From positions 3,618,106 through 3,682,105 of the forward strand of contig NZ_LR882967.1 in NCBI RefSeq assembly GCF_904830925.1: a stretch of DNA of 64,000 bases, given 5' to 3'. Positions within the stretch are counted from its first letter, which is position 1. Every line of letters begins with the position of its first letter. Position numbers and translations under genes: made by a program. Of this stretch, positions 14,432 to 38,235 are shown in pieces. Source of the DNA: Planktothrix pseudagardhii (GTDB lineage Bacteria > Cyanobacteriota > Cyanobacteriia > Cyanobacteriales > Microcoleaceae). Under the pieces are notes generated by a model. That model ran no database searches. It was not told the DNA's origin and saw nothing but the letters and a program-made list of their open reading frames with translations.

Positions 14432-15622
14432 TAAGCTGTTAAGCATCTAAATAGGGTATAATGAAAAACCAAGTTTAGAAAAATCAATCAAAAGATGCCT
14501 GCTAAAAATCATTTAAATGAAAAGCAAGTAGAGAAACTACAGAAAAGATTGAAAGAGGAAGAAAATGGACAAATCCGAGAAAGAATCTTGATTTTATTAT
14601 TGCTAAATGATGGTAAAAAGCAAAGTGAAATTGCCAAGTTTTTGGGCTGCTCATTAAACAAAGTATGTTATTGGTGTGTACATGGAGACCCTGACAAATT
14701 AGAAAGCCTAAAAGATGAAAGAATGAAAGGAAATTATAGAAAAGCCACAGACAAATATATAGAGATATTATTAGAAACAGTAGAAAAAGAACCGGAAGAA
14801 TTAGGATATGAATTTGGGAGATGGACAGGAGAAAGATTGGCAACTTATTTAGAACAAATCACAGGAATCAAATTAAGTAGTTCACAAGTGAGAAAGATAT
14901 TAAAGGAAAAAAAGTATGTTTATTTGTGGGCAAAGTATAGCTTAGAAGAGAAAAGAGATCCAGAAAAAAGAAAATTATTTAAAGATAAAATAGAAGAATA
15001 TTTGAAAATAGCAAAAGAAAGTCCAGAACAATTACAGGTATGGTTTTGGGATGAAAGTGGATTTAATTTAAGAGTGATAAAAAGAAAGAATTGGTGTAAA
15101 AAAGGGAAGAGGAAACAGATTAGAGGAGACAGGAGGAAAGGAAGAGTTAATGTGATGGGAGGATTGAGGTACTCGGATAAAAAAAGATTTGTAGAATTTC
15201 TGGATAAAGGAAATGCAGATAATTTTTATCAAGTGTTAAAAAGTTTTTATCAAGAGCTAATTTATGAATGGGTATTAGCGGGAAATCAAGCAGAAGAATT
15301 TGTAGAAAAAGGAGCTAAGATCCTGATTATTCTTGACAATGCAAGTTTTCACAAAAAAGAAGAGTACCTAGAAAAAATTAAAGCAGAAATGCCGAATGTC
15401 TATTTAGAATTTCTTCCAGCATATAGTCCAGATTATAATTTAATTGAATTAGTCTGGCATTCAGCTAAAGAATATATAGCTCATCGACTCTTTAAATCAG
15501 TTGATGAGCTAGAGTGTTTATTACATCAGCTTTTAAATGAAGGACAGTTATCTATTAAATGGGGACGTAAACTTAAAAACAAAGGTAATGCTATAATCAC
15601 AGTTTAAATACACAACAGCTTA
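14432..15622 (+). mobile_element. IS630-family (Tc1/mariner superfamily) insertion sequence, copy 1, approximately 1191 bp including flanking TA
   Basis: Sequence identity with the second copy at 35693-36883 starts at TAAGCTGTTAAGC and ends at ...ACACAACAGCTTA. The ends are imperfect inverted repeats (TAAGCTGTT / AACAGCTTA) flanked by TA, the classical IS630 target duplication. Confidence 0.8.
14495..15607 (+). CDS. IS630-family transposase (HTH + DDE/D)
   Basis: 370 aa with an N-terminal helix-turn-helix. The catalytic region contains WFWDESGF, ILDNASFH and YSPDYNLIE, which together resemble an IS630/Tc1 DD(34)E arrangement. It is identical to ORF 35756..36868. Confidence 0.85.
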   Translation: MPAKNHLNEKQVEKLQKRLKEEENGQIRERILILLLLNDGKKQSEIAKFLGCSLNKVCYWCVHGDPDKLESLKDERMKGNYRKATDKYIEILLETVEKEPEELGYEFGRWTGERLATYLEQITGIKLSSSQVRKILKEKKYVYLWAKYSLEEKRDPEKRKLFKDKIEEYLKIAKESPEQLQVWFWDESGFNLRVIKRKNWCKKGKRKQIRGDRRKGRVNVMGGLRYSDKKRFVEFLDKGNADNFYQVLKSFYQELIYEWVLAGNQAEEFVEKGAKILIILDNASFHKKEEYLEKIKAEMPNVYLEFLPAYSPDYNLIELVWHSAKEYIAHRLFKSVDELECLLHQLLNEGQLSIKWGRKLKNKGNAIITV

Positions 15623-25294: not shown

Positions 25295-26740
25295 TTGATA
25301 CAAAATCAGTACACTGATCCCCCGGCTCCTCCTCCTATGCTTACAGCTAGTTCTGAATTTGTCCAACTCTGTCGCACGCAATTGTCATTGACGGCGAGTT
25401 TAGGTGCGTCCTTGAGTGTGGTGTATTTGGCTGAGGCTTGGGTGGATGAGGAACATCAGAAATTAATTCCGATCGCCACTTATCCTGAAACCTCCCTGGA
25501 AGATTTGGATATTCCGGGTTTGATGCGCTTTCCGACCCTGTTAACTCCAACTCTACCTCGTTTGTTAACAACAGAAGAAATTACCAAAACCTGGATTTTG
25601 TTACCTGCGGTGGATATCAATGATTTTATAGAAGCCGAAGCACAGGGAGAGCAACCCCTAGAAGAAGAGGAAAGTTGGCAACAACGCAGTCAAACGGTGT
25701 TACCTTTAATTCAAGAAGAGGTGGTCTTAGGCTTTTTAGTAACGGGACGCAATGATCGTTCCTGGAACCCAGAGGAATATGGCCAATTGCAAGGAATTGC
25801 CCATACCTTAGCCCTGGGTTGTATTTTAGATCAACGCTCCCAATGGTTCCAACAACAATTAAGCCGACAACAACACCTACAGGCGCAACAAGCCGATGCC
25901 CTTCATAATATCTTTCATCAACTCAAAAGTCCCCTCACGGCGGTGCGTACCTTTGGAAAATTATTATTAAAGCGGTTACTACCGGAAGATAAAAACTATC
26001 CAATTGCCAATAGTATTTTACGAGAAAGCGATCGCATTCAAGAGTTGTTACAACAAGCTGATCAAACTTTAGACCGCACAGAACCTGCTGTAAGCTTACC
26101 CCTAACCGTTGATTCTGTCTTAATTTCCATGCCGCCTAGGGAAGAAGCCACGTCTGCGTCCTCAATGTTAACCTTGTTACCCGCTTGGGATCAACTCGAA
26201 TTCCTAGAATTGTCTGAGGTCTTACAACCGTTAATTTTATCAACCCAAGCGATCGCCGAAGAACGACAGCTTCAATGTTTTGTTGACCTTCCCCCTAAAT
26301 TACCCGTGATCCAAGGGAATCATAAAGCCTTGCGAGAAGTCTTGAGTAACCTCCTCGATAATGCCTTAAAATATACCCCACCAGGCGGAAAACTTTGTAT
26401 TCGAGTGCAACTGACTCAAAAACGGAAATCTCAACCCCTGCAAGTAGGAATTGGCATTAGTGATACTGGCCCCGGTATTCCACCCGAAGATTTAACTCAT
26501 TTATTTGAACGTCACTATCGAGGTGTCCAAGGACGTTCTGAAATTCCGGGGACAGGGTTAGGGTTAGCGATCGCAAAAACCTTAGTCGAACAAATGCAGG
26601 GAAAGATTGAAGTGTTCTCTCCTGTTAATTCGGTTTGGGTCTCCAAGGAGATGCTTTCTCGGGGGAATATTCCTAGAGGAACTACATTTATCGTTTGGTT
26701 AAAGGGTGTTACTCCTGATCAAGAATTGAACAGAAGTTGA
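25295..26740 (+). CDS. Sensor histidine kinase with an N-terminal GAF-like domain
   Basis: The H-box is LHNIFHQLKSPLTAVRTFGKLL. The HATPase_c region contains LSNLLDNALKYT, ISDTGPGIP and GTGLGLAIAKTLVE. Confidence 0.8.
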   Translation: MIQNQYTDPPAPPPMLTASSEFVQLCRTQLSLTASLGASLSVVYLAEAWVDEEHQKLIPIATYPETSLEDLDIPGLMRFPTLLTPTLPRLLTTEEITKTWILLPAVDINDFIEAEAQGEQPLEEEESWQQRSQTVLPLIQEEVVLGFLVTGRNDRSWNPEEYGQLQGIAHTLALGCILDQRSQWFQQQLSRQQHLQAQQADALHNIFHQLKSPLTAVRTFGKLLLKRLLPEDKNYPIANSILRESDRIQELLQQADQTLDRTEPAVSLPLTVDSVLISMPPREEATSASSMLTLLPAWDQLEFLELSEVLQPLILSTQAIAEERQLQCFVDLPPKLPVIQGNHKALREVLSNLLDNALKYTPPGGKLCIRVQLTQKRKSQPLQVGIGISDTGPGIPPEDLTHLFERHYRGVQGRSEIPGTGLGLAIAKTLVEQMQGKIEVFSPVNSVWVSKEMLSRGNIPRGTTFIVWLKGVTPDQELNRS

Positions 26741-26862
26741 TAGAATTATTTTTTCTCAACTGATGTTGTCTCCATCCCCAAGCCAATATTAAGCTTAGGA
26801 GTCCCAACAAACTGGTCTGAAGATTCATTTTTTACACCTTTATTGTACCCGGTTTAAAGCCT

Positions 26863-27501
26863 ATGAGTGCATCCAGTAACCCTGATAATCTGATTAATAA
26901 CCCAGTGAGTTCCTCTGTTCCTTTAGAAGAAAATTCAGGTAAACCACTTTCTTATGTTGCCCAGGAAGATATCATTTATCGTGCTTTTGATCGCAAAACC
27001 GTCTGTCGGGTTTTAAGCCAAGCTCATATTTATGTTTCCATTCGCTGGACAAGAACTCATCTTTATATTGGCATTCCCAGCACCGTTTTAGCGGCTGTTG
27101 CTGGTGTGCAAGCCATCTCCAGTTTAGGCGGAAATTATCAATTAGTGGCGGTGATTATTCCCGTTTTAGTCGCTATTCTTGCACCGTTATTAACCTTTTT
27201 AGATCCCAATGGTAAAGCGAATACCCATTTAGTCGCCTCCAGGGTTTATGAACAAATGGCCGATCAATATGATTCATTTTTACTCAAATGTCGTTTAGAA
27301 CCCCGACCCATCGAGGAAGAACTGAATGATTTAGTTCAGATAAATTCTGTGTATAGTGAAAGTAAAAAATCCCTTCCGGCTTGTCCTGAATGGGCGTATC
27401 AAAAAGCCCTCCGCACCGAAAATGACATCCAAAAACTGATTCCTGATGAGATCAAGAAAGCTGGAGGGTATGACAAATATATTGCCGATGCGCCCTCTTG
27501 A
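26863..27501 (+). CDS. Small 2-TM protein with SLATT-like organisation (soluble N-region, two adjacent TM helices, helical C-region)
   Basis: 212 aa. The TM helices IGIPSTVLAAVAGVQAISSL and LVAVIIPVLVAILAPLLTFL are separated by a short loop. The post-TM ...NTHLVASRVYEQMADQYDSFL resembles the conserved H...Y...L helix of SLATT domains. This is my recollection of the family pattern, not a database hit. Confidence 0.35.
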   Translation: MSASSNPDNLINNPVSSSVPLEENSGKPLSYVAQEDIIYRAFDRKTVCRVLSQAHIYVSIRWTRTHLYIGIPSTVLAAVAGVQAISSLGGNYQLVAVIIPVLVAILAPLLTFLDPNGKANTHLVASRVYEQMADQYDSFLLKCRLEPRPIEEELNDLVQINSVYSESKKSLPACPEWAYQKALRTENDIQKLIPDEIKKAGGYDKYIADAPS

Positions 27502-27622
27502 AAGGAGAATAAATTTTATCCCCTTAAACACCTTTTAATTTCTGTAGAGGCAGGTTTGAGTTCAGTTTTGAATCAGCACCTAAAACCAACCCAAAGCTAC
27601 TTCTACGGGATGGAGATCTTCA

Positions 27623-28315
27623 ATGGGTAACACACAATCTGATTTAGAAGGATTAGAAATTACACCAGGGGAAATCAAACATTGGAGTGGTATTAATCAG
27701 AAGTTACTCTACCGACCAGCTACCGTTAAAAAATTATTAGGGGAAGGTTTAAAAACCTTTTTTATCTTTTTATTATTATTAATGAGTTATTGGATTTGGA
27801 GTTTAATTTTTCCAGAACTCTCTTTAATTTTAATCATAATTTATTTAACCATTGGGGGACTATTAATTCTTGAGGATAGTGTAAAACTGTGGAATACCTT
27901 AACCCGTCCCCAATTCGTTAAACTGTGTCATCAAGTGGAGCGTTATAACGCCATTGTTAAAGCCTTAAAAATTTATGATCAACTCGATGCAATAGCCCAT
28001 CCCCCTGGAAAATTAAACAATCGAGAAGCTATTATTGCAGCTTTAAACTTAATTAGAACAGAATTAATTAAAGGATTAAAAATAGAACGAACCTTGAAAA
28101 AACATCAAAAATTTATTCAGCAATATTCCGAACTTTTTGATCCAAATTTCACCGCCTTAACGGTCTTACAAACAGAAAAACCCACAACAGAACAAGGAAG
28201 ACTCCTGTATCAAGCCTTTGAAATTGCTTCAGACGTTCATCAACAATTAAAACAACTTCAGGAACAACAGATTTCCCCTAATCGCAAGCAACAGACAATC
28301 AGAAACAAGGAATAG
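27623..28315 (+). CDS. Small 2-TM hypothetical protein with a C-terminal helical / coiled-coil region
   Basis: 230 aa. TM helices FFIFLLLLMSYWIWSLIF and LILIIIYLTIGGLLIL. It is co-directional with the upstream SLATT-like gene and the downstream module. Confidence 0.35.
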   Translation: MGNTQSDLEGLEITPGEIKHWSGINQKLLYRPATVKKLLGEGLKTFFIFLLLLMSYWIWSLIFPELSLILIIIYLTIGGLLILEDSVKLWNTLTRPQFVKLCHQVERYNAIVKALKIYDQLDAIAHPPGKLNNREAIIAALNLIRTELIKGLKIERTLKKHQKFIQQYSELFDPNFTALTVLQTEKPTTEQGRLLYQAFEIASDVHQQLKQLQEQQISPNRKQQTIRNKE

Positions 28316-28567
28316 GAAAAAAATCAATCTAAGCTGCTATTACATTTAAAGTGTATATTCTAGGGAGCGGGGACGCTCCAACTACAAGGAATTGGCAATT
28401 TCCCCATCACCATTAGAGACTGAATAGCTTATATTAATCACTATTCTGGCGACTTATTGTCAACCCTTGTCCAATAAACGGGTAAAAAAAGTTTCACCCC
28501 AACCCCTTCTGGATAACCTGGTTTTACGATATGATAAGGAACTGTATAAGTTTCTAAGTAAACTATC

Positions 28568-29716
28568 TTGAGTGAGATTTGTACCCCAGTCGCACCAGGT
28601 CAACCGTTGACACCTTACCAGAAAATTGGTTTGGAATCAGTCACTCGTCTACATGGCGGACGGGATGTGGTACTGGCGATTGACCTAACGGAAAGCGTCG
28701 GTTTGAATGATGAAGGTCATTTGCGTTTACGTCAAATTGTTGAAGATAGCTTAAAATCAGGAGACACCGTTTATGTTGTGCCTTTTGCTACAAAAACTAA
28801 CCCTTCAACACCTGAGATCAACCCTTTAACTTTAGAAACTGCAATTCAGTTTAAAGGGAAAGCCGATGTAGAAAAGATTTTACAATTAATTCCCTTTCAG
28901 CCTGACCTGAGATTACAAAATACCGATATTCAACAAGCTGAGTTAACGATTTATCAGGGTTTAGCAGATCTCAATCAATGTCGTTTAACCCAGAATCAAC
29001 CGATTAAACCGCAATCGATTGTTTGGATTACCGATGCACCGTTATTTACAAAATCCCCTGCTACCTCTGAAGAATGGACGGAAACCCCAGCAGACAGTCC
29101 TTTCCGAATAGCAACTTCTCCAGAAACACAACAGCGCCAAGAGTGGTTAAATCAATTACCTTTAAATCAGCGATCGCTTCCGATTAAAACTCAAGAACAG
29201 CGACAATATAACCTAACAATTGTTGATATTCCTCCGAATGTTCAAGAGTTCTGTACTCCTACCCCCGGACAGAAAGAAACTTGTTTAGTTTCTCCTTATT
29301 TATGGAAACAGTTATGGCTACCCGGATTAATTTTAGGAATTTTAATTCTTGCTAGTGTCGGGATGGGAATTAAAATTTATCGTTTGAATAAAAAATGGAA
29401 ACTGATGGTTAATTTTGATGATGATGATCAGGTAGCAGATCAAACCTGCTCTCTCGGTAATCATCAAAGAATTGCCATTGGTGAATATGAATCTGGTTGT
29501 CAGGATACCATTGATTTACCTGGAGCAGAAGTTCGGGCTTATTTAGTCAGAAAAGGAGAAAAACTTTATTTAGAACCGACGAACAATAGCCGGATTGAAT
29601 ATCAAGACAAAATTGTCGATCAAAAAATCCAAATAACCAGAAGTAGGATAAATTTTAATTGCCCTAATCCTAAACCTCCCAAAAACTACAGATTAACCAT
29701 TAAAATTCAAAAATAA
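28568..29716 (+). CDS. vWA-domain (MIDAS DxTxS) protein with a single TM helix and a C-terminal FHA-like domain
   Basis: The N-terminal ...DVVLAIDLTESVGLND... fits the vWA MIDAS motif (DxS/TxS). A Pro/Thr/Gln-rich linker follows, then the TM helix LWLPGLILGILILASVGMGI. The C-terminal approximately 100 aa (...RIAIGEYESGCQDTIDLPGAEVRAYLVRKGEKLYLEPTNNSRIEYQDKIV) follows the FHA pattern. The ORF begins with a non-ATG (TTG) start in the track. Confidence 0.5.
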   Translation: MSEICTPVAPGQPLTPYQKIGLESVTRLHGGRDVVLAIDLTESVGLNDEGHLRLRQIVEDSLKSGDTVYVVPFATKTNPSTPEINPLTLETAIQFKGKADVEKILQLIPFQPDLRLQNTDIQQAELTIYQGLADLNQCRLTQNQPIKPQSIVWITDAPLFTKSPATSEEWTETPADSPFRIATSPETQQRQEWLNQLPLNQRSLPIKTQEQRQYNLTIVDIPPNVQEFCTPTPGQKETCLVSPYLWKQLWLPGLILGILILASVGMGIKIYRLNKKWKLMVNFDDDDQVADQTCSLGNHQRIAIGEYESGCQDTIDLPGAEVRAYLVRKGEKLYLEPTNNSRIEYQDKIVDQKIQITRSRINFNCPNPKPPKNYRLTIKIQK

Positions 29717-29737
29717 ACTAACCAAAAGGGATTTATC

Positions 29738-32700
29738 ATGCAAGCTAATGATTATCAACTGCAAGGAGTTCAACGCACAATTTGTATCGGATTAGGAGGA
29801 ACAGGACGAGATGTTTTAATGCGAATTCGGCGGTTAATTGTAGAAAAATATGGAGATTTAACAGAACTACCAATTGTTAGTTTTGTTCATATTGACACAG
29901 ATAAAACTGCCACTCAGTCCGCCAGTTTAAAAACAGGTAATACCTATCGGGGTGTTGATTTAAGTTTTCGAGATTCTGAAAAAGTAAATGCCATTTTAAC
30001 TTCCGCAGAAGTAACCAATTTTGTGCGAGGTGTAGAACAGCGTTCTAAATCCAATCGTTCTGGGCCGTTTGATCATATTTCTCGCTGGTTTCCGCCTCAA
30101 TTACTTCGTAATATTAGAGCCGTTGAAGAAGGAGCAAAAGGAATTCGACCTGTGGGAAGATTAGCGTTTTTTCATAATTATCAAAAGATCAAAACTGTCA
30201 TTGAAACCGCAGCAAAACGGACAATGGGTCATGAAGCAACCTTACTGAAAGCCAGATTAAAACTTGAACCCGGATTAAATATTTTTGTGATTGGTTCCCT
30301 CTGTGGCGGTACAGGAAGCGGAATGTTTTTAGATGTTGCTTATAGTTTAAGGAAATCCTATGGAGATAAAGGCACGCAATTACTCGGATATTTAGTGGTA
30401 AGTCCACAGTTATACAGCAATGCGTCCTATATGAATGCTAATACTTATGCAGCCTTAAAAGAACTCAATTATTATAGCAGTGCGGGGACTCGATTTGAAG
30501 CTTGTTATGATATGCAAAATTTGGTAATTGTTCAGGAACCTCGCGCCCCATTTGATTATACTTATTTAATTTCTAATGAAACGAACGGTGAATATACAAT
30601 CTTAGAACAACAAAAATTATGTAATGTAATTGCCCATAAAATCGCGTTAGATTTTATCGGAGAATTAGCCCCTGTTGCTAAAGGAATGCGGGATAATTTA
30701 CTAAACCATTTAATTCAATCGGATAATCATCCCCGTCCTAATACTCAAGGATATTTAACCTTTGGCTTGGCTGCGATTTATTTTCCTCGTGAAATTATCG
30801 TAAAAATTGCCTTAAATCGAATTAGTTTAAAATTGGTTAATTTTTGGTTAAATGGAGAAGGTCAAAGTCCCGATCCTCAATTAATTATTGAACAATTTTT
30901 GATTAAATATAATTGGTATAGCGATTTAATCCAACGGGATGGGTTTAAAGAACGACTTGCTGGAGGCGTTCAAGAAGGGAGCAAAAACTTTTCTACGACC
31001 TTAACTAAATTCAGAGAGAAATTAATTCAAAAAATTAATGAGTGTAGAAATAGTGAAGATCGGCTCAGTTTAAAAAACAACTTATTACGAGAATTACGAG
31101 AACAGTTCAGAAAAGTTCTGCCGGGAGAAACGGAAACAACAAGAGGAATTTGGTTAACTCGGTTAATGCAGGTACAACCGCTCATCGCTCAACAATTGAA
31201 AAATCATATTAATGAATTTATTGAGGAATTAATGACCCCTAGCAATCCCAAATTTTCGACTAAAAGTGTTCGTGATTGGTTAGAGGCGATGCAAACAGAA
31301 TTAAACACCTATCAACGTCAGTTAGAGGAAGAAATTAGTCAAGGGGAAGGAATGAAAAAAAATGAAGACTTAGAGAAAAAATTGCGAGATTTAGAACAGA
31401 ACATGGATGAGATAGAGCAAAGAATTGAACTCCCCATACTGAATCGTAAAAATGCCGATATTCAGAGATTAGCGAGAAACGTTGTTCAAAGTATTATGCA
31501 GTTAATTCAGCATAATTTCAAATTAGCAGTAACTCAAGAAACATTAAAAATCGTCAATGATTTGCAAAAGTATGTTAGAGATTGTTCGACTGAAGTTGCC
31601 ACCTTTAGCCGGATGATCGAAAATTTAAAAACGAATTATGAGAAAGAACAAAATGATCTGATAAATTCTAATTTTAATGAAATGAGTGGAGAAGCTATTT
31701 TTGCTCAAGAAGATATTGAAGAATGTTATCAAACCTTATTACCTGATTTAGAGTTTCGCTCTGCATTGGTGTTAGTGAGTAAAGATATTACAGAGGCATC
31801 TGGGGTAGGAGAATCGATCTGCTATTTAATTAATCGTACCACTGGAGAGCAACTGAAAACAGAAATTGATCAAAAAATAGATGGTGAATTTGGTTCTCGG
31901 AGTAACCAAATTGTTAAATCTGTGATTAAGCGTTTTATTCAAAAATATTCTGGGTCAATTCGTCCTACCCGTTTAGGACAAATTATTGAGCAGGCAGAAC
32001 CTTTATTACGTTTAAATGTGAGTGATCCTTATTTTTCTAATCTTTCGGATAAACGAAAAGAATTTATTGGATTTAAAGATACCGATGAGGTAGAAGTAAA
32101 TCAGTTTAAAATGACTCTGACTCGTGATTTGGGAATCGACCCAACGGCTTTAAAACCGACTCAAGCTGAAGATCAAATTTTAATTGTTCGGGAATATGGT
32201 GGGTTTCCTTTACGGTTGATTAATGGTTTAGAAGAAATCAGAAATCATTATATCCGAGAACAAAATAAAGATGGCTCAACTTGTCATTCTGATTATCAGA
32301 TCCCCTTTACTGATATTATCCCCCCAGATGCTAGACTCATGGAAGAATTGGAAGATGTTTTCTATCCTTGTTTAGCATTTCAGTTAATTGTTAAAAATCC
32401 TAAAAATCAAGGCTTAGAGTTTCAATATTACGATAATTTACGAGACTATTATTATACAGCAGAACTGAACCCAATTTGGAATCAAGCGTTAGAAGAACTA
32501 GCGAATCACCGAGAAATGACGAAAACGTTAAACGAGTTATTAGAGGAGGAAATTAATCAGATTCGTCAAAATCCTGATCTCTGGAAAAGTCAATATTTAC
32601 CCAGATTACAGCAATTTGTGGATTATGTGGATAATTTACCTGAATCTAATCCTAATTATCTTTATAAATCAACGGTTGTGGGGACTCCGGGTACAATTAA

Positions 32701-32965
32701 TAATTTAGGACATGAAGGAGTTATTAATCGTTTTCGTCGAAAAATTCAGGAAAGTCTAACTAAGACTGGAAGTTTACCAACATCGGTTAATGACGATTCT
32801 GCCGCTTTAGTAAAGCGTGGAGAAAATTCCAGAGATTTTAACCAAAGTGATGACAGTTTAGAGGCAAAATTAAGGCAGCTAAAACAAAAATTAGATCAGG
32901 GGTTCATTACTCAAAAAGGATATGAATTTGAGAAAGAAGAAATTCTACGGAAATATGGTTGTTAA
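29738..32965 (+). CDS. Giant tubulin/FtsZ-superfamily GTPase (FtsZl1-like) with a long alpha-helical extension and a C-terminal SHOCT-like motif
   Basis: 1075 aa. The N-terminal glycine loop RTICIGLGGTGRDVLMRI is T1/phosphate-binding-like. GSLCGGTGSGMFLDVAY contains the tubulin/FtsZ signature GGTGSG. NYQK is followed by a T7-like region. The remaining approximately 650 aa are Glu/Lys/Gln-rich helical. The C-terminal ...LRQLKQKLDQGFITQKGYEFEKEEILRKYGC matches the SHOCT short C-terminal domain pattern. Confidence 0.7.
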   Translation: MQANDYQLQGVQRTICIGLGGTGRDVLMRIRRLIVEKYGDLTELPIVSFVHIDTDKTATQSASLKTGNTYRGVDLSFRDSEKVNAILTSAEVTNFVRGVEQRSKSNRSGPFDHISRWFPPQLLRNIRAVEEGAKGIRPVGRLAFFHNYQKIKTVIETAAKRTMGHEATLLKARLKLEPGLNIFVIGSLCGGTGSGMFLDVAYSLRKSYGDKGTQLLGYLVVSPQLYSNASYMNANTYAALKELNYYSSAGTRFEACYDMQNLVIVQEPRAPFDYTYLISNETNGEYTILEQQKLCNVIAHKIALDFIGELAPVAKGMRDNLLNHLIQSDNHPRPNTQGYLTFGLAAIYFPREIIVKIALNRISLKLVNFWLNGEGQSPDPQLIIEQFLIKYNWYSDLIQRDGFKERLAGGVQEGSKNFSTTLTKFREKLIQKINECRNSEDRLSLKNNLLRELREQFRKVLPGETETTRGIWLTRLMQVQPLIAQQLKNHINEFIEELMTPSNPKFSTKSVRDWLEAMQTELNTYQRQLEEEISQGEGMKKNEDLEKKLRDLEQNMDEIEQRIELPILNRKNADIQRLARNVVQSIMQLIQHNFKLAVTQETLKIVNDLQKYVRDCSTEVATFSRMIENLKTNYEKEQNDLINSNFNEMSGEAIFAQEDIEECYQTLLPDLEFRSALVLVSKDITEASGVGESICYLINRTTGEQLKTEIDQKIDGEFGSRSNQIVKSVIKRFIQKYSGSIRPTRLGQIIEQAEPLLRLNVSDPYFSNLSDKRKEFIGFKDTDEVEVNQFKMTLTRDLGIDPTALKPTQAEDQILIVREYGGFPLRLINGLEEIRNHYIREQNKDGSTCHSDYQIPFTDIIPPDARLMEELEDVFYPCLAFQLIVKNPKNQGLEFQYYDNLRDYYYTAELNPIWNQALEELANHREMTKTLNELLEEEINQIRQNPDLWKSQYLPRLQQFVDYVDNLPESNPNYLYKSTVVGTPGTINNLGHEGVINRFRRKIQESLTKTGSLPTSVNDDSAALVKRGENSRDFNQSDDSLEAKLRQLKQKLDQGFITQKGYEFEKEEILRKYGC

Positions 32966-33027
32966 CTCATTTTAATTTAGTTACATTGATTTGAATCTAA
33001 GCTCATGTTCAATCTTGAGGATATTTT

Positions 33028-34599
33028 ATGTTGTTTCCTTCTTTTCCTCCTTTACCGCCTTTGTTAATCATTTTGATCGGGATATTTGTGTTTATTCCCT
33101 CGATCATTACCCTCTATTATCGCTGGAATCTTTATCAACATTTAACCACTCAAGCGAATAAAATTTATCAGATTATCAATAAACGGGAGCTTGAACTCCC
33201 GCCTGCGATTGTACAAGTTTTAGAACAGAGTTTTGCAGAATCCAGCCAAAATTTAGAACAAGTGAACACGGCGGCTTTGATTGATCAAGCCTACAGCCAA
33301 GAAAAGGTTTTAGGGAAATCCTGCGAACAAATTGAATATTGGTGTCGAATTATTCCGAATTTACTCCTGGCTTTTGGATTAATTGGAACCTTTATTGGAA
33401 TTACGGTCAATTTGGGTTCTTTGAGTCAAACTATTAGTCAAAGTCAAGCAACGGATGTTAGTCAGTTAGTAGAGGAATTAAAACAACCCCTAGAAGGAAT
33501 GGCGATCGCTTTTATTACCAGTTTAGCTGGGTTATTGTGTAGTGCATTATTAACTGTTTTAAACTTTTTATGGAATACGAGTCTAGCGAAATATCGTTTA
33601 ACGGTTTCTTTAGAACATTACCTCGATAATATTTATTATTCATCCTTAAATGGTCAAACTCGGTTGGATAAAGTTGTTAAAGGAATGTCGAGTGAATTTA
33701 AAGATTTTTTAGATCGATTTGGTATTACTGTTAGAGATGCGGTGGAATCTGCCATGAGAGATAATATTCATCAAATTACAAAAGCGAATGTAGAAGCGAG
33801 TGAATTAGCTCTAAAAGTCTATAGTCAATTATCCAATGCTACAGGAACGTTAGAAAGGGGAGCTAGAGAGTTTCAAACCGCCACAGAAAGTTTTACAAAT
33901 GCGGTACAAGTGAGTAACACAACGGCTGATAAATTAGAACAAGTTGCTCAAGGTTTTGAACAAAGTGAATTTCCTAAACAATTATCAATAATCGCTACTG
34001 ATTTTGGAGAGAATCAAAAGAATTTTTCTGACTCAGCATTCGGTTTATTTCAAACGGTTAAATCTTTGGAAACAATATTAAATCAACTTCAGATCTTTAC
34101 AGAGCAGTTATTAAAAACGGAAACAAAATTAAGTGAACTTAATCAAAGTTCCTTACAAGTTTTAGAGTTAAATCAAATTAATCAACAATCCCTAGTTGAA
34201 ATTATTCCTCAACTGCAACAAGGAGGAAAAAGCTTGGAGTTAAGTTCTCAAACGTTAGAGAATATCCAAAACAAACTTATTGATAAATCCGATCATTTAG
34301 AAGGTATTCATAAACAATTAGAAACCTTAGTTAAAACCCTTAATAGTTATACAAATACAGTGAATTTTGAACTAGAATCTTTAAGTAAAATGATGAATAA
34401 GCTCATTAAAGAACAAACAAATAGTAGTCAGTCCTATTCACAAGTCTTAGCGGATAAATTAGAAGCAGCAATTAAACCTAATATTAAGTATATTATTGAG
34501 ATGAAATCTGATTTATCTCAGGTACTTAAACTCTTAAAAGAACAAAGCGGTAATCCGGGAATTAAGAAAAATAAACCAAAATTTTGGGAAAGTAAATAA
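33028..34599 (+). CDS. MotA/TolQ/ExbB-family proton-channel protein with a long C-terminal coiled-coil tail (ZorA-like architecture)
   Basis: 523 aa. The TM core has the family motif LLLAFGLIGTFIGITVNLG and LEGMAIAFITSLAGLLCSALLTVLN (compare LGLLGTVIGI / A..TT.GL of MotA/ExbB). Approximately 330 C-terminal residues are Gln/Ser/Asn/Glu/Leu-rich and predicted helical. Confidence 0.65.
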   Translation: MLFPSFPPLPPLLIILIGIFVFIPSIITLYYRWNLYQHLTTQANKIYQIINKRELELPPAIVQVLEQSFAESSQNLEQVNTAALIDQAYSQEKVLGKSCEQIEYWCRIIPNLLLAFGLIGTFIGITVNLGSLSQTISQSQATDVSQLVEELKQPLEGMAIAFITSLAGLLCSALLTVLNFLWNTSLAKYRLTVSLEHYLDNIYYSSLNGQTRLDKVVKGMSSEFKDFLDRFGITVRDAVESAMRDNIHQITKANVEASELALKVYSQLSNATGTLERGAREFQTATESFTNAVQVSNTTADKLEQVAQGFEQSEFPKQLSIIATDFGENQKNFSDSAFGLFQTVKSLETILNQLQIFTEQLLKTETKLSELNQSSLQVLELNQINQQSLVEIIPQLQQGGKSLELSSQTLENIQNKLIDKSDHLEGIHKQLETLVKTLNSYTNTVNFELESLSKMMNKLIKEQTNSSQSYSQVLADKLEAAIKPNIKYIIEMKSDLSQVLKLLKEQSGNPGIKKNKPKFWESK

Positions 34600-34733
34600 A
34601 TTTAGGACTGATGCTGGAGATTCTCGGCTAGATCAGGAGATTGATCCTGAGTTCAGGTTTTCATATTAGTTACCCGGTTTCTTGGGTACAAGTTGGTAAG
34701 TTTTGTAATTATTATTATTAAAGGTTTAAAATT

Positions 34734-35456
34734 ATGCGTCGTCCGACTCAAATTAAAAATTCATCGGAAGATTTGAATGTCTGGCAAGCATTTACAGATT
34801 TAATGTCTAATGCTTTTTTAATTATGAGCTTGTTTTTATTGTTAGCCATTGTTAAATCATCGTTATTAACTTCTAATTCAAAAGAAAAAGATCAGAAAAT
34901 TAAAGGCTTAGAATTAACAGTTGGTTCATTAAAAAACGAAATTGAACGATTAAAAGCTCCACCAGTCATTGTGATTAAAGATTCTGATCGAGATGCACAG
35001 GGGCGATCTTTAAAATTTGAGACAGGTAAGGCAGATTTACCGGAAGGGTTGCGAATTTTTATTGAAGGGAATGTGGTGGAAAAATTAGAGGAATTTTCTA
35101 AAGTTTATCAAGGTTATGTAGTGGATGTAATTGGACATACTGATGGTCAAGAAACCTTTAATCCTGCTAGTAATTTAGATCAAATCTTAGAACAAGTTGC
35201 ACAGGGGAACCAACCTGTTAAAAATCTCAAACCCGGTTCCAATGCTGATTTAGGATTAATGCGCTCTTTAGCAGTTGTTAAAAAACTCCAAGCTATTCAA
35301 GAACAAGGTCGTTTAAAGGGGTTAAAATTTAGAGCTTATTCAGCCGCACAATTATTTTTACCTTCAGGACAATATGCGTCGCAAAATCGTGCTTCTGATG
35401 AAACAAGAAGACGTATCGAAATTCGCTTTACTCCCCCAGGAGTTGAACAATATTAA
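34734..35456 (+). CDS. MotB/OmpA-family partner: single TM with conserved Asp, C-terminal OmpA-like peptidoglycan-binding domain
   Basis: 240 aa. The N-terminal WQAFTDLMSNAFLIMSLFLLLAIV resembles the MotB/ExbD plug-TM segment (Asp in FTDLMS). The C-terminal VIGHTDGQE...NADLGLMRSLAVVKKLQ...RRRIEIRF matches the OmpA_C consensus. Confidence 0.65.
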   Translation: MRRPTQIKNSSEDLNVWQAFTDLMSNAFLIMSLFLLLAIVKSSLLTSNSKEKDQKIKGLELTVGSLKNEIERLKAPPVIVIKDSDRDAQGRSLKFETGKADLPEGLRIFIEGNVVEKLEEFSKVYQGYVVDVIGHTDGQETFNPASNLDQILEQVAQGNQPVKNLKPGSNADLGLMRSLAVVKKLQAIQEQGRLKGLKFRAYSAAQLFLPSGQYASQNRASDETRRRIEIRFTPPGVEQY

Positions 35457-35692: not shown

Positions 35693-36883
35693 TAAGCTGT
35701 TAAGCATCTAAATAGGGTATAATGAAAAACCAAGTTTAGAAAAATCAATCAAAAGATGCCTGCTAAAAATCATTTAAATGAAAAGCAAGTAGAGAAACTA
35801 CAGAAAAGATTGAAAGAGGAAGAAAATGGACAAATCCGAGAAAGAATCTTGATTTTATTATTGCTAAATGATGGTAAAAAGCAAAGTGAAATTGCCAAGT
35901 TTTTGGGCTGCTCATTAAACAAAGTATGTTATTGGTGTGTACATGGAGACCCTGACAAATTAGAAAGCCTAAAAGATGAAAGAATGAAAGGAAATTATAG
36001 AAAAGCCACAGACAAATATATAGAGATATTATTAGAAACAGTAGAAAAAGAACCGGAAGAATTAGGATATGAATTTGGGAGATGGACAGGAGAAAGATTG
36101 GCAACTTATTTAGAACAAATCACAGGAATCAAATTAAGTAGTTCACAAGTGAGAAAGATATTAAAGGAAAAAAAGTATGTTTATTTGTGGGCAAAGTATA
36201 GCTTAGAAGAGAAAAGAGATCCAGAAAAAAGAAAATTATTTAAAGATAAAATAGAAGAATATTTGAAAATAGCAAAAGAAAGTCCAGAACAATTACAGGT
36301 ATGGTTTTGGGATGAAAGTGGATTTAATTTAAGAGTGATAAAAAGAAAGAATTGGTGTAAAAAAGGGAAGAGGAAACAGATTAGAGGAGACAGGAGGAAA
36401 GGAAGAGTTAATGTGATGGGAGGATTGAGGTACTCGGATAAAAAAAGATTTGTAGAATTTCTGGATAAAGGAAATGCAGATAATTTTTATCAAGTGTTAA
36501 AAAGTTTTTATCAAGAGCTAATTTATGAATGGGTATTAGCGGGAAATCAAGCAGAAGAATTTGTAGAAAAAGGAGCTAAGATCCTGATTATTCTTGACAA
36601 TGCAAGTTTTCACAAAAAAGAAGAGTACCTAGAAAAAATTAAAGCAGAAATGCCGAATGTCTATTTAGAATTTCTTCCAGCATATAGTCCAGATTATAAT
36701 TTAATTGAATTAGTCTGGCATTCAGCTAAAGAATATATAGCTCATCGACTCTTTAAATCAGTTGATGAGCTAGAGTGTTTATTACATCAGCTTTTAAATG
36801 AAGGACAGTTATCTATTAAATGGGGACGTAAACTTAAAAACAAAGGTAATGCTATAATCACAGTTTAAATACACAACAGCTTA
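35693..36883 (+). mobile_element. IS630-family insertion sequence, copy 2, identical to copy 1 and in the same orientation
   Basis: 35693-36883 matches 14432-15622 base for base across the compared sequence and carries the same TA-flanked imperfect inverted repeats. The flanking sequences differ on both sides. Confidence 0.8.
35756..36868 (+). CDS. IS630-family transposase (identical to 14495..15607)
   Basis: The 370-aa translation is identical to copy 1. Confidence 0.85.
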   Translation: MPAKNHLNEKQVEKLQKRLKEEENGQIRERILILLLLNDGKKQSEIAKFLGCSLNKVCYWCVHGDPDKLESLKDERMKGNYRKATDKYIEILLETVEKEPEELGYEFGRWTGERLATYLEQITGIKLSSSQVRKILKEKKYVYLWAKYSLEEKRDPEKRKLFKDKIEEYLKIAKESPEQLQVWFWDESGFNLRVIKRKNWCKKGKRKQIRGDRRKGRVNVMGGLRYSDKKRFVEFLDKGNADNFYQVLKSFYQELIYEWVLAGNQAEEFVEKGAKILIILDNASFHKKEEYLEKIKAEMPNVYLEFLPAYSPDYNLIELVWHSAKEYIAHRLFKSVDELECLLHQLLNEGQLSIKWGRKLKNKGNAIITV

Positions 36884-36897: not shown

Positions 36898-38235
36898 TTG
36901 ATGGGAACTCCAATGCGACCTAAAATTATTGTTCTCGATGATGACCCCACAGGTTCTCAAACCGTTCATAGTTGCTTATTGCTGACTCAGTGGGATGTGG
37001 ATACTCTGCGAATTGGACTGGCTGACCAATCTCCGATTTCCTTTATTCTCACCAATACTAGAGCTTTAACACCCGAACAAGCCGCTTCTGTTACCCGTGA
37101 AGTCACCCAAAATTTAAAATTAGCCCTCGCCGCCGAATCCATTACGGATTTTATGGTGGTGAGTCGTTCTGATTCAACTCTCCGGGGTCACTATCCTGTC
37201 GAAACCGATGTTATCGCCGAGGAACTTGGCCCCTTTGATGCTCATTTTCTAGTTCCTGCGTTTTTTGAAGGGGGAAGAATTACCCGCAATAGTATTCATT
37301 ATTTAATCGTTGATGGTGTAGAAACCCCCGTTCATTTAACGGAATTTGCTAAGGATTCGGTCTTTGCTTATCAACATAGTTATTTACCCGATTATGTCAC
37401 CGAAAAAACCAAAGGTTTGATTCCATCGGAAAAAGTAGAACGATTTTCTTTATCCGATATTCGGGTAGGAACCTTACCTCGGTTAATGCGTTTAACAGAC
37501 AATCAATGTGTGGTTGTCGATGGTGAAACTCAAGCCGATTTTGATCAATTCGCCTCGGATATTATTACCGCCGCTAGTCAAGGAAAACGCTTTTTATTCC
37601 GCAGCGCGGCGAGTATTTTAACGTCTTTAGCTGCATTGGGAAATCAACCCATTCCCGCAGAAGAAATGGCAAAATATACCCGAAATGGAAAACCGGGTGT
37701 AGTGATTATGGGTTCTCATGTTAAAAAATCAACTCAACAATTAGAACGATTATTACAAGAACCTGGAGTTGTGGGGATTGAAGTGGATGTTTCCCATTTA
37801 TTAGAAGAAAGTGAGACTCAAAGACAGGAACTCTTACAGCAAATTTTAGACCAAATCAAGGCTATTCATGAAGCGGGTCAAACCCCAGTCATTTATACCA
37901 GTCGTCAAGAATTACAATTTGACACGGTAGAAACTCGGTTAGCCTTTGGAATTAAAGTCTCTGATTTACTCATGGATATTGTTCGAGGTTTACCGAAAGA
38001 TATTGGATTTTTAATTAGTAAAGGTGGGATTACTTCTAATGATGTTTTAAGTAAAGGATTAGCGTTAAAAACAGCACGGTTACTCGGTCAAGTGTTAGCA
38101 GGTTGTTCAATGGTGAAAACCTCTTCTAACCATCCTTTATACCCCAATTTACCCGTTGTTTTATTCCCTGGAAATGTGGGAGACTCCGATGGTTTAGCAA
38201 CGGTTTATCGACGTTTAACCCAACCCCCAACCTAA
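36898..38235 (+). CDS. Four-carbon acid sugar kinase family protein (OtnK/YgbK-like; DUF1537 + DUF1357 domains)
   Basis: 445 aa. The N-terminal KIIVLDDDPTGSQTV is the hallmark of this kinase family (3-oxo-tetronate kinase type). Confidence 0.7.
   Translation: MMGTPMRPKIIVLDDDPTGSQTVHSCLLLTQWDVDTLRIGLADQSPISFILTNTRALTPEQAASVTREVTQNLKLALAAESITDFMVVSRSDSTLRGHYPVETDVIAEELGPFDAHFLVPAFFEGGRITRNSIHYLIVDGVETPVHLTEFAKDSVFAYQHSYLPDYVTEKTKGLIPSEKVERFSLSDIRVGTLPRLMRLTDNQCVVVDGETQADFDQFASDIITAASQGKRFLFRSAASILTSLAALGNQPIPAEEMAKYTRNGKPGVVIMGSHVKKSTQQLERLLQEPGVVGIEVDVSHLLEESETQRQELLQQILDQIKAIHEAGQTPVIYTSRQELQFDTVETRLAFGIKVSDLLMDIVRGLPKDIGFLISKGGITSNDVLSKGLALKTARLLGQVLAGCSMVKTSSNHPLYPNLPVVLFPGNVGDSDGLATVYRRLTQPPT

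What the first reader, a model, noticed from the sequence alone, without database searches (positions are those of the whole stretch)
26863..35456. Six-gene membrane-associated module: 2-TM (SLATT-like) proteins + vWA-TM-FHA + giant tubulin/FtsZ-like GTPase + ZorA-like MotA + MotB/OmpA partner
Six co-directional ORFs with short gaps encode a combination I do not recognise as any named system. It contains a 1075-aa tubulin-superfamily GTPase (GGTGSG signature, T1-like glycine loop, SHOCT-like C-terminus). Immediately after it is a MotA/ExbB-type proton channel with an approximately 330-aa coiled-coil tail, which is the ZorA architecture of Zorya anti-phage systems. Then comes a MotB/OmpA-type partner with the conserved TM aspartate. 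A vWA-MIDAS protein with a C-terminal FHA-like domain and two small 2-TM proteins precede it, and the first 2-TM protein has a SLATT-like layout. From memory, FtsZl1-type tubulin homologues were described in operons with vWA and membrane proteins and linked to membrane remodelling. Coupling such a GTPase to a proton-motive stator pair is a plausible candidate for an uncharacterised defence or membrane-remodelling machine. The module sits in an IS-bracketed accessory block.
Basis: partly seen in the sequence, partly recalled or inferred. Interest (0 to 1): 0.92.

Follow-up and report, generated by a model that had tools for sequence, protein, structure and literature searches.

The report
Tubulin-like GTPase with Zorya-type motor
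This is a copy of a four-gene cluster conserved across many cyanobacteria that pairs a tubulin-like GTPase with a proton-driven, Zorya-type membrane motor; the cluster was catalogued in 2010 but has never been studied experimentally, and the two small membrane genes in front of it are local neighbours, not part of it.

Summary

- **Domains:** SLATT_4; a 2-TM protein; vWA-TM-FHA (fold confirmed on an AlphaFold2 model); a 1075-aa Tubulin_2/FtsZl1 GTPase; a ZorA-like 3-TM channel with a helical tail of about 340 aa; and a ZorB-like partner with a TM aspartate and an OmpA-type peptidoglycan-binding domain.
- **Unit size:** the conserved unit has four genes, not six. Of 63 cyanobacterial species loci with enough flank, 61 carry vWA-FtsZl1-ZorA-like-ZorB-like and 59 are colinear. 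SLATT lies upstream in only 1 of 67 loci. No other flanking gene family occurs in more than 16 of 80 loci.
- **Prior record:** Makarova & Koonin (2010) list this four-gene set in their supplement for Anabaena, Cyanothece and Microcystis. There the ZorA-like gene is unnamed family 'B7'.
- **Context:** flanks are mostly housekeeping genes and differ between genera. Similarity follows taxonomy. No orthologue was found on plasmids, phages or viral contigs. The adjacent IS630 copy is a recent insertion.

My best reading is a vertically inherited, envelope-anchored machine in which a proton-driven 5:2 stator is coupled to a tubulin-like polymer. A Zorya-like immune role remains a serious rival. The function is untested. 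I score interest as moderate to high and classify it as a new member of a known kind.

The parts
28568..29716 (+). Core gene 1. 382-aa protein with an N-terminal vWA domain (MIDAS-like D39xT41xS43, T119, D156), a single TM helix (250-268) and a C-terminal FHA-fold domain (~277-382). TTG start.
29738..32965 (+). Core gene 2. 1075-aa FtsZl1 / Tubulin_2 GTPase. Tubulin-like domain at 15-367, then about 700 aa of conserved, largely helical or coiled-coil extension with a weak SHOCT-like end. No TM segment.
   Evidence: Pfam PF13809 365.9 bits. PF00091 hits in 8 of 10 homologues. Invariant GGTG and GGTGSG motifs. 678 homologues, full length, 49-92% identity across cyanobacteria. No hydrophobic span.
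33028..34599 (+). Core gene 3. 523-aa ZorA-like stator A subunit (Makarova's family 'B7'). TM1 at 12-30, a cytoplasmic helical domain with a small beta-hairpin, TM2 (~108-130), TM3 (~160-178), and a helical tail at 184-507.
   Evidence: PADLOC ZorA1 1.4e-12. PDB ZorA 8qyk 9.7e-5, with P110/T121/S165 aligned to EcZorA Pro136/Thr147/Ser184. Foldseek top hits are ZorA, ExbB and TolQ. Invariant residues. Tail length ranges 481-678 aa in homologues.
34734..35456 (+). Core gene 4. 240-aa ZorB/MotB-like stator B subunit. TM helix with Asp22 (FTDLMSNAF), a coiled-coil linker, and an OmpA-type peptidoglycan-binding domain (GHTD, SNADLGLMR, RRRIEIRF).
   Evidence: PADLOC ZorB1 5.1e-9. Best PDB hit is 8vvn_B, Shewanella type I ZorB. 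Motifs are invariant in 19 homologues.
26863..27501 (+). Neighbour, not part of the conserved module. 212-aa SLATT_4 2-TM protein.
   Evidence: NCBIfam SLATT_4 94.1 bits against cutoff 55. PADLOC 2TM effector. Upstream of the core in only 1 of 67 species loci, and also in one close metagenomic relative.
27623..28315 (+). Neighbour, not part of the conserved module. 230-aa 2-TM protein of unknown family.
   Evidence: No hit in Pfam, NCBIfam or PADLOC. Two hydrophobic spans at 45-63 and 65-83. Homologues occur in 3 loci only. In Nostoc it lies directly upstream of the homologue of window gene 36898-38235.
35693..36883 (+). IS630-family insertion sequence (transposase 35756-36868), inserted immediately downstream of the core.
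   Evidence: DDE_3 and HTH domains. 1191 bp, 100% identical to the copy at 14432-15622. Absent at this position in the syntenic relative.
14432..15622 (+). Second, identical IS630-family copy, in direct orientation 21,261 bp upstream.

Best explanation
Window 28568-35456 is an orthologue of the conserved cyanobacterial 'FtsZl1 operon'. It has four genes that travel together and most likely build one envelope-anchored machine.

**Shown by sequence or model:**
- The ZorA-like and ZorB-like proteins have the parts of a 5:2 ion-driven stator. These are an A subunit with three TM helices carrying the Thr/Ser ion filter, and a B subunit with the essential TM aspartate and an OmpA-type peptidoglycan-binding domain.
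- The A subunit carries a helical cytoplasmic tail of about 340 residues, as in Zorya ZorA.
- FtsZl1 is a cytoplasmic tubulin-family GTPase with an intact nucleotide-binding signature and a long coiled-coil extension.
- The first gene encodes a single-pass membrane protein with a MIDAS-bearing vWA domain on one side of the membrane and an FHA-fold domain on the other.

**Inferred mechanism:**
- The B dimer fixes the complex to the cell wall, and proton flow turns or switches the A pentamer.
- The A tail contacts the helical extension of FtsZl1, and so controls (or is positioned by) GTP-dependent FtsZl1 assembly at the inner face of the membrane.
- The vWA-TM-FHA protein tethers or gates the polymer.

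**Role.** The cluster is chromosomal, follows taxonomy, is the same in all P. agardhii assemblies seen here, and sits among housekeeping genes. I therefore think an envelope or membrane-organising cell-biological role is more likely than a mobile defence system.

**Neighbours.** The SLATT_4 gene and the second 2-TM gene are lineage-specific neighbours. The IS630 copy is a recent insertion.
For: - **Composition and synteny:** 61 of 63 species loci carry all four genes and 59 are colinear on one strand, with median gaps of 38, 99 and 326 nt. Clustering all flank ORFs gives four families in 70-78 of 80 loci, and the next family reaches only 16.
- **Prior record:** the same gene sets appear in the literature supplement.
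- **Stator features:**, compared with EcZorAB residues.
- **Tubulin family:**
- **vWA and FHA folds:**
- **Vertical, non-mobile pattern:** identity runs 75-92% in Planktothrix, 61-65% in other Oscillatoriales, 53-60% in Nostocales and 49-53% in Chroococcales/Pleurocapsales.
- **Within-species conservation:** all P. agardhii assemblies returned carry a 1066-aa orthologue at the same 75% identity to the window protein, and one exact sequence is indexed in 235 collection blocks.
- **Flanks:** housekeeping genes that differ between genera, such as leuCD, glycogen phosphorylase, TamB and psbEFLJ/Ycf48.
- **No mobile copies:** no viral relative and no orthologue on 72,556 plasmids or 50,697 phage records.
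- **Selection:** the core is more conserved than its flanks between the window and its nearest relative, 93.9% against 80-86% nt identity.
- **SLATT and ORF2 not conserved:**
- **IS insertion recent:**
Against: - No physical interaction, polymerisation, ion flux or phenotype has been tested for any member. No paper on function was found.
- The closest characterised relatives of the stator pair are anti-phage ZorAB.
- Other tubulin+vWA systems have been predicted to be conflict systems. A distant paralogue on a Thermus plasmid sits next to TROVE and BrxL genes.
- The ZorA-like tail varies in length and carries internal repeats, which could reflect diversifying pressure.
- The module's chromosomal position differs between the window lineage and P. 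agardhii, so it does move.
- The tubulin 3D fold itself was not modelled here.
- The topology of the vWA-TM-FHA protein is unresolved. The positive-inside rule puts FHA in the cytoplasm, but the vWA domain has no signal peptide.
Confidence: 0.5

Rival explanations
1. It is a Zorya-like immune system. The ZorAB-like motor senses envelope perturbation during phage entry and signals through its tail. The output is FtsZl1 polymerisation, with the vWA-TM-FHA protein as adaptor, instead of the ZorC/D nucleases. The polymer could, for example, trap or exclude the invader or arrest the cell. On this reading the system is chromosomally fixed in multicellular cyanobacteria.
For: - The best sequence and structure matches of both stator subunits are ZorA and ZorB.
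- The Zorya mechanism depends on exactly this tail.
- Tubulin+vWA systems were predicted to be conflict systems enriched in multicellular prokaryotes.
- Tail length is variable.
- A distant paralogue lies next to BrxL and TROVE genes on a plasmid.
Against: - No ZorC, D, E, F or G homologue, and no nuclease or other recognisable effector.
- Scores are far below NCBIfam Zorya cutoffs: 30.9 against 100, and 15.3 against 400.
- Similarity is taxonomy-congruent, flanks are housekeeping genes, and there are no plasmid, phage or viral orthologues.
- Conservation is high, at 49-92% over 1075 aa.
Confidence: 0.3
2. The SLATT_4 pore-former, and perhaps the second 2-TM protein, have been recruited as membrane-disrupting effectors of the FtsZl1-ZorAB machine.
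For: - The six genes are co-directional. The arrangement is kept in the nearest relatives, L008 and the 91%-identical metagenomic contig.
- SLATT recurs as an effector in GTPase/tubulin-type conflict systems.
Against: - SLATT is upstream in 1 of 67 species loci.
- The largest intergenic gap, 252 nt, separates ORF2 from the core.
- SLATT and ORF2 are less conserved than the core between the window and L008: 87% and 77% against 92-93% amino-acid identity.
- In Nostoc the ORF2 homologue is instead adjacent to the homologue of the gene that lies downstream of the core in the window. This suggests the core sits between two formerly adjacent genes.
Confidence: 0.12
3. The four genes are merely neighbours with unrelated functions, for example a TolQR/MotAB-like envelope system next to an unrelated GTPase.
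For: No direct interaction data exist.
Against: Colinearity holds in 59 of 63 species spanning several cyanobacterial orders, while all other neighbours change. FtsZl1 + MotA/TolQ/ExbB + OmpA is also adjacent in Deinococcus.
Confidence: 0.03

Closest known systems
FtsZl1 operons (Makarova & Koonin 2010, Biol Direct 5:33; Pfam Tubulin_2, PF13809)
   Same: The gene order and sizes match Ava_1847-1850, Cyan8802_4287-4290 and MAE_58760-58800: vWA of about 372-381 aa, FtsZl1 of about 1049-1097 aa, 'B7' of about 523-549 aa, and a COG1360 MotB/OmpA protein. Ava_1847 and Ava_1849 appear among the homologues found here.
   Different: The paper left 'B7' unannotated in cyanobacteria, described the OmpA-like partner as a beta-barrel membrane protein, and proposed membrane remodelling. 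It predates Zorya. Here B7 plus COG1360 are shown to be a ZorAB-type stator pair, and the vWA protein is shown to carry an FHA fold. The window copy additionally has SLATT_4, a 2-TM gene and an IS next to it.
Zorya anti-phage systems, ZorA5B2 motor (Hu et al. 2024 Nature, PMC11946911; PDB 8qyd, 8vvn)
   Same: The A subunit has three TM helices, a cytoplasmic domain with a beta-hairpin, equivalents of Pro136, Thr147 and Ser184, and a long helical tail. The B subunit has the TM Asp and a peptidoglycan-binding domain with the N..L...R motif. The A and B genes are adjacent.
   Different: - There are no ZorC/D, ZorE or ZorF/G partners.
- Scores fall below curated Zorya cutoffs.
- The ZorB-like protein has a linker, coiled-coil in Oscillatoriales, between the TM and the PG-binding domain. 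EcZorB has none.
- The tail is about 340 aa, against about 500 aa in EcZorA.
- The pattern is chromosomal and taxonomy-congruent, not patchy.
- The partners are a tubulin-like GTPase and a vWA-FHA protein.
GAP1-N2 / DO-GTPase 'tubulin' conflict systems (Kaur, Burroughs, Iyer, Aravind 2020 eLife, PMC7159879)
   Same: A tubulin-family protein with a C-terminal coiled-coil or helical extension is linked to membrane-associated vWA proteins. SLATT is an occasional effector. These systems are enriched in multicellular prokaryotes.
   Different: Those systems centre on P-loop DO-GTPases and GAP1 with FNIII components, and occur in Firmicutes and Actinobacteria. None of these components is in this cluster, and a MotA/ZorA-type stator is not mentioned in that paper.
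vWA proteins coupled to TolQ-like 5:2 motors (Mol Biol Evol 2025, PMC12204202)
   Same: A membrane-tethered vWA protein is encoded next to a 5:2 motor.
   Different: In those systems the vWA domain is C-terminal to the TM helix and periplasmic, acting as a TolA/TonB-like force transducer or as the B subunit itself. Here the vWA domain is N-terminal without a signal peptide, a separate B subunit exists, and a tubulin-like GTPase is present.

Membership tests
FtsZl1 / Tubulin_2 (PF13809) | Match to the Tubulin_2 profile above Pfam's gathering score | tested here: met
   365.9 bits against a cutoff of 27, covering profile positions 1-355 of 356. All 10 homologues match.
FtsZl1 / Tubulin_2 (PF13809) | Tubulin signature GGTGSG and a glycine-rich T1-type loop | tested here: met
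   G190-G195 (GGTGSG) and G18, G20-G23 are invariant in 10 homologues of 55-76% identity.
FtsZl1 / Tubulin_2 (PF13809) | Operon partner with a vWA domain | tested here: met
   The adjacent upstream gene has a vWA fold with a MIDAS-like motif. It is conserved in 79 of 87 loci.
FtsZl1 / Tubulin_2 (PF13809) | Tubulin/FtsZ three-dimensional fold | tested here: inconclusive
PF00091 hits at the signature region occur in 8 of 10 homologues, best E 7e-6. A profile search finds no PDB relative.
FtsZl1 / Tubulin_2 (PF13809) | GTP-dependent polymerisation | not testable with these tools
   Needs biochemistry.
5:2 ion-driven stators (MotAB/ExbBD/TolQR/ZorAB) | A subunit with the MotA/ExbB-type TM fold | tested here: met
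   The 34 best Foldseek hits are ZorA, ExbB and TolQ chains; probability is about 1 for the best. Pfam MotA_ExbB scores 17.9 bits, below its cutoff of 22.9.
5:2 ion-driven stators (MotAB/ExbBD/TolQR/ZorAB) | Universally conserved aspartate in the B subunit TM helix | tested here: met
   D22 in FTDLMSNAF is invariant in 19 sequences. It is the equivalent of ZorB Asp26.
5:2 ion-driven stators (MotAB/ExbBD/TolQR/ZorAB) | Polar Thr/Ser filter on TM2 and TM3 of the A subunit | tested here: met
   Invariant T121 and S165 align with EcZorA Thr147 and Ser184. P110 aligns with Pro136.
5:2 ion-driven stators (MotAB/ExbBD/TolQR/ZorAB) | 5:2 stoichiometry and ion-driven rotation | not testable with these tools
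   No multimer prediction or experiment was available.
Zorya (types I-III) | ZorA with a long C-terminal helical tail | tested here: met
   Residues 184-507 are helical in the AF2 model, with low confidence as a monomer. The PADLOC ZorA1 match spans 95-415.
Zorya (types I-III) | ZorB with a peptidoglycan-binding domain | tested here: met
   GHTD, SNADLGLMR (N..L...R, as in ZorB N152/L155/R159) and RRRIEIRF are present.
Zorya (types I-III) | Scores above the curated ZorA and ZorB family cutoffs | tested here: not met
   NCBIfam antiphage_ZorA_2 scores 30.9 against 100, ZorA_1 23.4 against 190, and ZorB1 15.3 against 400.
Zorya (types I-III) | Type-defining soluble partners: ZorC+ZorD, ZorE, or ZorF+ZorG | tested here: not met
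   No PADLOC hit to any of these among the six proteins. No further conserved neighbour in 80 loci.
Zorya (types I-III) | Anti-phage activity | not testable with these tools
   Needs a phage challenge.
SLATT_4 | Profile match above cutoff, plus two TM helices | tested here: met
   94.1 bits against a cutoff of 55. Hydrophobic spans at 67-85 and 94-112.
SLATT_4 | Association with a SMODS/SLOG or other nucleotide-signalling partner | tested here: not met
   The neighbours are a GAF-histidine kinase and a 2-TM protein with no hits. No cyclase or SLOG gene lies in 20-40 kb.
vWA domain | Rossmann-like vWA fold with a MIDAS motif | tested here: met
FHA domain | FHA beta-sandwich fold | tested here: met
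FHA domain | Canonical phosphothreonine-binding residues (GR ... SxxH ... NG) | tested here: inconclusive
   No Pfam FHA match at E<=1. By eye the family has G305-E where FHA has G-R, and VRAY where FHA has SxxH. No residue-level structural alignment was available.
GAP1-N2 / DO-GTPase tubulin systems | DO-GTPase and GAP1 core genes | tested here: not met
   None among the six proteins or the conserved neighbours.

The most novel reading that the evidence does not exclude
A proton-driven 5:2 rotary stator of the Zorya type is physically coupled to a tubulin-family polymer. This would be a previously undescribed motor-cytoskeleton machine. In its most novel form, it is a chromosomally fixed immune or envelope-damage sensor of multicellular cyanobacteria whose output is GTP-dependent filament assembly rather than a nuclease.
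Probability: 0.3. Interest if true: 0.85.

Novelty: new member of a known kind. Interest (0 to 1): 0.6.

Why it matters
The function of FtsZl1 has been open since 2010, and no member has been studied experimentally in the literature I could search. The unnamed 'B7' and COG1360 partners turn out to be a ZorAB-type stator, down to the ion-filter residues, the TM aspartate and the long tail. The four genes are almost invariably colinear across cyanobacterial orders. Together these turn a vague 'membrane remodelling' idea into specific, testable hypotheses:

- Mutate the stator aspartate.
- Truncate the tail.
- Abolish GTP binding.
- Look for filament assembly, envelope phenotypes or phage resistance in tractable Anabaena or Nostoc strains.

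A direct link between an ion-driven rotary motor and a tubulin-like polymer would be new biology for both fields. If the system is instead immune, it would extend Zorya-type sensing to a new class of output.

Tried and rejected
- **Six-gene module:** rejected on neighbourhood counts.
- **Composite-transposon or accessory island bounded by the two IS630 copies:** rejected as an explanation for the module. The 21-kb block holds ordinary genes such as VanY, DegT aminotransferase, LRR protein, PadR, CCB1 and a histidine kinase. The relative without the IS has the same gene order.
- **Link to the downstream DnaK-DnaJ pair, as in HSP70-type DO-GTPase systems:** in the window the next genes are CobW, HupE and cyanate lyase, with no DO-GTPase. 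DO-GTPase2 appears only in the relative's contig.
- **minCDE adjacency seen in Nostoc L033:** present in only 2 of 80 loci and absent from the window.
- **SLATT and ORF2 as paralogues:** no similarity.
- **Promoter and terminator scan:** counts at or below shuffled expectation, so uninformative.
- **Megablast of the whole region against plasmids:** no match.
- **Profile search of FtsZl1 against PDB, and hhalign against E. coli FtsZ:** no usable signal.
- **Literature searches:** searches for locus tags, Tubulin_2, and Zorya with FtsZ, tubulin or cyanobacteria found no functional study.
- **Not used:** the representative-protein search, the metagenome scan and the third fold search.

Full report
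**1. Observation**

Profile scans confirm most of the proposed identities:
- ORF1 is SLATT_4: NCBIfam 94.1 bits against a cutoff of 55, and PADLOC '2TM effector' 1.8e-20.
- ORF4 matches Pfam Tubulin_2 end to end, E=3e-109 over residues 15-367.
- ORF5 matches fourteen PADLOC ZorA profiles, the best at 1.4e-12. Pfam MotA_ExbB is only weak.
- ORF6 matches PADLOC ZorB profiles, the best at 5e-9.
- ORF2 and ORF3 match nothing in Pfam, NCBIfam or PADLOC.

A Kyte-Doolittle scan shows two hydrophobic spans in ORF1 and in ORF2, one in ORF3 (250-268), none in ORF4, three in ORF5 and one in ORF6.

**2. The two proteins that needed structure**

For ORF3 I collected 569 homologues, aligned 24 and predicted the structure (pLDDT 79.6).
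- D39-x-T41-x-S43, T119/D120 and D156 are invariant. This is a MIDAS-like constellation.

So 'vWA-MIDAS, TM, FHA-like' is correct. The canonical FHA phosphothreonine-binding residues are not evident. The family has G-E where FHA has G-R, and the Pfam FHA model does not match.

Topology is unresolved. The C-terminal side of the TM helix carries a net charge of +3.3 against +0.7 on the N-terminal side. That places the FHA domain in the cytoplasm. However, the 250-residue vWA part has no signal peptide.

For ORF5 the AF2 model is confident for residues 1-210 and helical over 184-507. Foldseek returns ZorA (8qyd, 8qyk, 8qyh) first, then ExbB and TolQ, with probabilities near 1 for the best hits.

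By sequence, the best PDB match is also ZorA. In that alignment the invariant P110, T121 and S165 of this family fall on EcZorA Pro136, Thr147 and Ser184. These are the kink and ion-filter residues described by Hu et al..

The best PDB match of ORF6 is chain B of the Shewanella type I ZorAB complex, 8vvn. An alignment of 19 family members shows these invariant features:
- FTDLMSNAF, holding the TM aspartate (D22 here).
- GHTD.
- SNADLGLMR, with the same N..L...R spacing as the ZorB peptidoglycan-binding residues.
- RRRIEIRF.

The pair therefore has the defining sequence features of a 5:2 stator, and its nearest characterised relative is ZorAB.

**3. What is conserved**

FtsZl1 has 678 detectable homologues. 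The best are from Planktothrix (75-97% identity), then other Oscillatoriales (about 65%) and Nostocales (54-60%). All are full length.

A scan of one genome per species found 503 stretches encoding a relative. The best 80 are all cyanobacterial. I mapped the six window proteins onto these loci with tblastn:
- Of 63 loci with enough flanking sequence, 61 have the vWA-FHA protein, FtsZl1, the ZorA-like protein and the ZorB-like protein.
- 59 of these are colinear on one strand, with median gaps of 38, 99 and 326 nt.
- SLATT lies upstream in 1 of 67 loci, a Planktothrix MAG of the window's own lineage.
- ORF2 occurs in 3 loci.

Clustering every flank ORF gives four families present in 70-78 of 80 loci. 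The next most common family is in 16. The unit is therefore exactly four genes.

A 91%-identical metagenomic relative keeps the six-gene order and the window's flanks but lacks the IS.

In two Nostoc genomes the ORF2 homologue lies directly upstream of the homologue of window gene 36898-38235, an SBD_N/NBD_C kinase-like protein. In the window these two genes flank the core. This fits the core having been placed between two formerly adjacent genes.

**4. Context**

- Flanks in Planktothrix agardhii, P. serta, Nostoc and Kamptonema are housekeeping genes and differ between genera: leuCD, glycogen phosphorylase, TamB, psbEFLJ/Ycf48 and a 2-oxoacid dehydrogenase E2.
- Every P. agardhii assembly returned carries a 1066-aa orthologue at the same identity to the window protein, and one exact sequence is indexed in 235 collection blocks.
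- No relative occurs in 2.9 million viral contigs.
- Among 72,556 plasmids only six carry distant paralogues, at 35% identity or less and over the tubulin domain only. Among 50,697 phage records there is one marginal hit.
- Between the window and its nearest relative the core is 93.9% identical at the DNA level, and the flanks are 80-86%.
- The two IS630-family copies are 1191 bp, identical and in direct orientation. The 21-kb block between them holds ordinary genes.

This is not the signature of a mobile defence island.

**5. Literature**

Makarova & Koonin (2010) defined FtsZl1 and noted its association with vWA proteins, kinases, a GTPase and 'OmpA family' proteins. Their Additional file 5 lists these sets:
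- Ava_1847-1850: vWA 381 aa, FtsZl1 1085 aa, 'B7' 524 aa, COG1360 215 aa.
- Cyan8802_4287-4290.
- MAE_58760-58800.
- Deinococcus: FtsZl1 followed by 'MotA/TolQ/ExbB membrane protein' and 'OmpA family protein'.

Ava_1847 and Ava_1849 are among my homologues, and UniRef already labels Ava_1849 as a MotA/TolQ/ExbB channel.

Kaur et al. (2020) reinterpret tubulin+vWA+DO-GTPase systems of Firmicutes and Actinobacteria as conflict systems. That paper does not mention MotA, and ZorA occurs only once, in its reference list.

Two Zorya structure papers, a MotAB evolution paper and a paper on periplasmic force transducers do not mention tubulin.

I found no functional study of any member. The operon is therefore known but uncharacterised. 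The specific ZorAB reading of B7/COG1360 and the FHA fold appear not to have been discussed in the library I could search.

**6. Mechanism**

Shown:
- The parts of a peptidoglycan-anchored, ion-driven 5:2 stator with a long cytoplasmic tail.
- A cytoplasmic tubulin-family GTPase with intact signature motifs and a long helical extension.
- A single-pass vWA/FHA adaptor.
- Strict co-inheritance of the four genes.

Inferred:
- The tail of the A pentamer and/or the FHA or vWA domains contact FtsZl1. This would couple ion flow or envelope state to GTP-dependent assembly at the membrane.

Role: the vertical, chromosomal, housekeeping-flanked pattern makes me favour an envelope or membrane-organising cell-biological function (confidence about 0.5). 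A Zorya-like immune function is at about 0.3. Its main support is the ZorAB resemblance, the conflict-system prediction for other tubulin+vWA systems, variable tail length with internal repeats, and a Thermus plasmid paralogue next to TROVE and BrxL genes.

**7. Limits**

- The tubulin fold itself was not modelled. The assignment rests on Pfam Tubulin_2, on PF00091 hits in 8 of 10 homologues, and on the invariant signature.
- The SHOCT-like end is weak.
- No multimer modelling or experiment was possible.

**8. Verdict**

This is a new member of a known, uncharacterised operon family, with a sharper mechanistic hypothesis than the literature offers. Interest is 0.6.

Noticed in passing
window 14432-15622 and 35693-36883; also 16174-17094: Two 1191-bp IS630-family copies are 100% identical and in direct orientation, 21,261 bp apart. 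Both begin TAAGCTGTT and end AACAGCTTA. A third, different IS (DDE_Tnp_4 transposase) lies at 16174-17094. The copy at 35693 is absent from a syntenic relative, so transposition was recent.
   Followed up: yes
L033 2955-5022 and L083 2790-4825, compared with window 27623-28315 and 36898-38235: In two Nostoc genomes the ORF2 homologue (30% identity) lies directly upstream of the SBD_N/NBD_C kinase-like gene, followed by minCDE and then the four-gene core. In the window ORF2 and that kinase-like gene flank the core. ORF2 may be functionally tied to the kinase-like gene rather than to FtsZl1.
   Followed up: partly
homologues of window 33028-34599 (alignment A3, e.g. P0288, P0259, P0333): The ZorA-like tail ranges from 481 to 678 aa in total protein length. 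Longer versions contain an internal duplication of the segment 'NQTSIQVL.LHQNNQ..L.EIIPQLQQGA...'. Two homologues carry a C-terminal TPR hit.
   Followed up: partly
homologues of window 34734-35456 (alignment): The linker between the TM helix and the peptidoglycan-binding domain of the ZorB-like protein is a coiled-coil-like stretch of 30-60 residues in most Oscillatoriales, shorter in Planktothrix including the window. It is almost absent in most Nostocales and in Chroococcales and Pleurocapsales. EcZorB has no linker.
   Followed up: no
window 28568-29716 (residues C229, C239, C294, C365): There are four conserved cysteines (three invariant, one in 23 of 24 homologues). Two lie just before the TM helix on the vWA side, and two lie in the FHA-fold domain. 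If these are disulfides, they would bear on which side is extracytoplasmic. Topology is unresolved because the vWA part has no signal peptide.
   Followed up: partly
window 19723-32111 compared with L008: Against the nearest species-level relative, the vWA-FtsZl1 region is 93.9% identical in DNA. The upstream genes, including the histidine kinase and the SLATT gene, are 80-86% identical. This points to stronger constraint on the core, or to a more recent exchange of it.
   Followed up: no
L088 (Thermus oshimai plasmid pTHEOS01, NC_019387.1 77206-92216): A distant FtsZl1 paralogue sits in the order TROVE - vWA - tubulin-like - 677-aa hypothetical - BrxL-like Lon protease - exonuclease. This is a defence-like context with no stator pair. 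FtsZl1 subfamilies clearly live in different contexts.
   Followed up: partly
window 40740-43836 (- strand), and the relative's contig: A DnaJ-DnaK (HSP70) pair lies 5 kb downstream. In the 91%-identical relative this pair is followed by a DO-GTPase2 (PF19993) gene. In the window it is followed by CobW, HupE/UreJ and cyanate lyase. The DO-GTPase/HSP70 arrangement in the relative resembles systems described by Kaur et al. 2020.
   Followed up: partly
window 22315-23469: A 384-aa protein is made almost entirely of leucine-rich repeats (12 LRR_4 stretches). It lies between a VanY-type D-Ala-D-Ala carboxypeptidase with an M41-like fragment and a PadR regulator.
   Followed up: no
window 24870-25193 (- strand): In the syntenic relative a DUF3155 gene occupies the position of the minus-strand ORF at window 24870-25193. 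This region is 94% identical in DNA between the window and L008, more than its neighbours.
   Followed up: no
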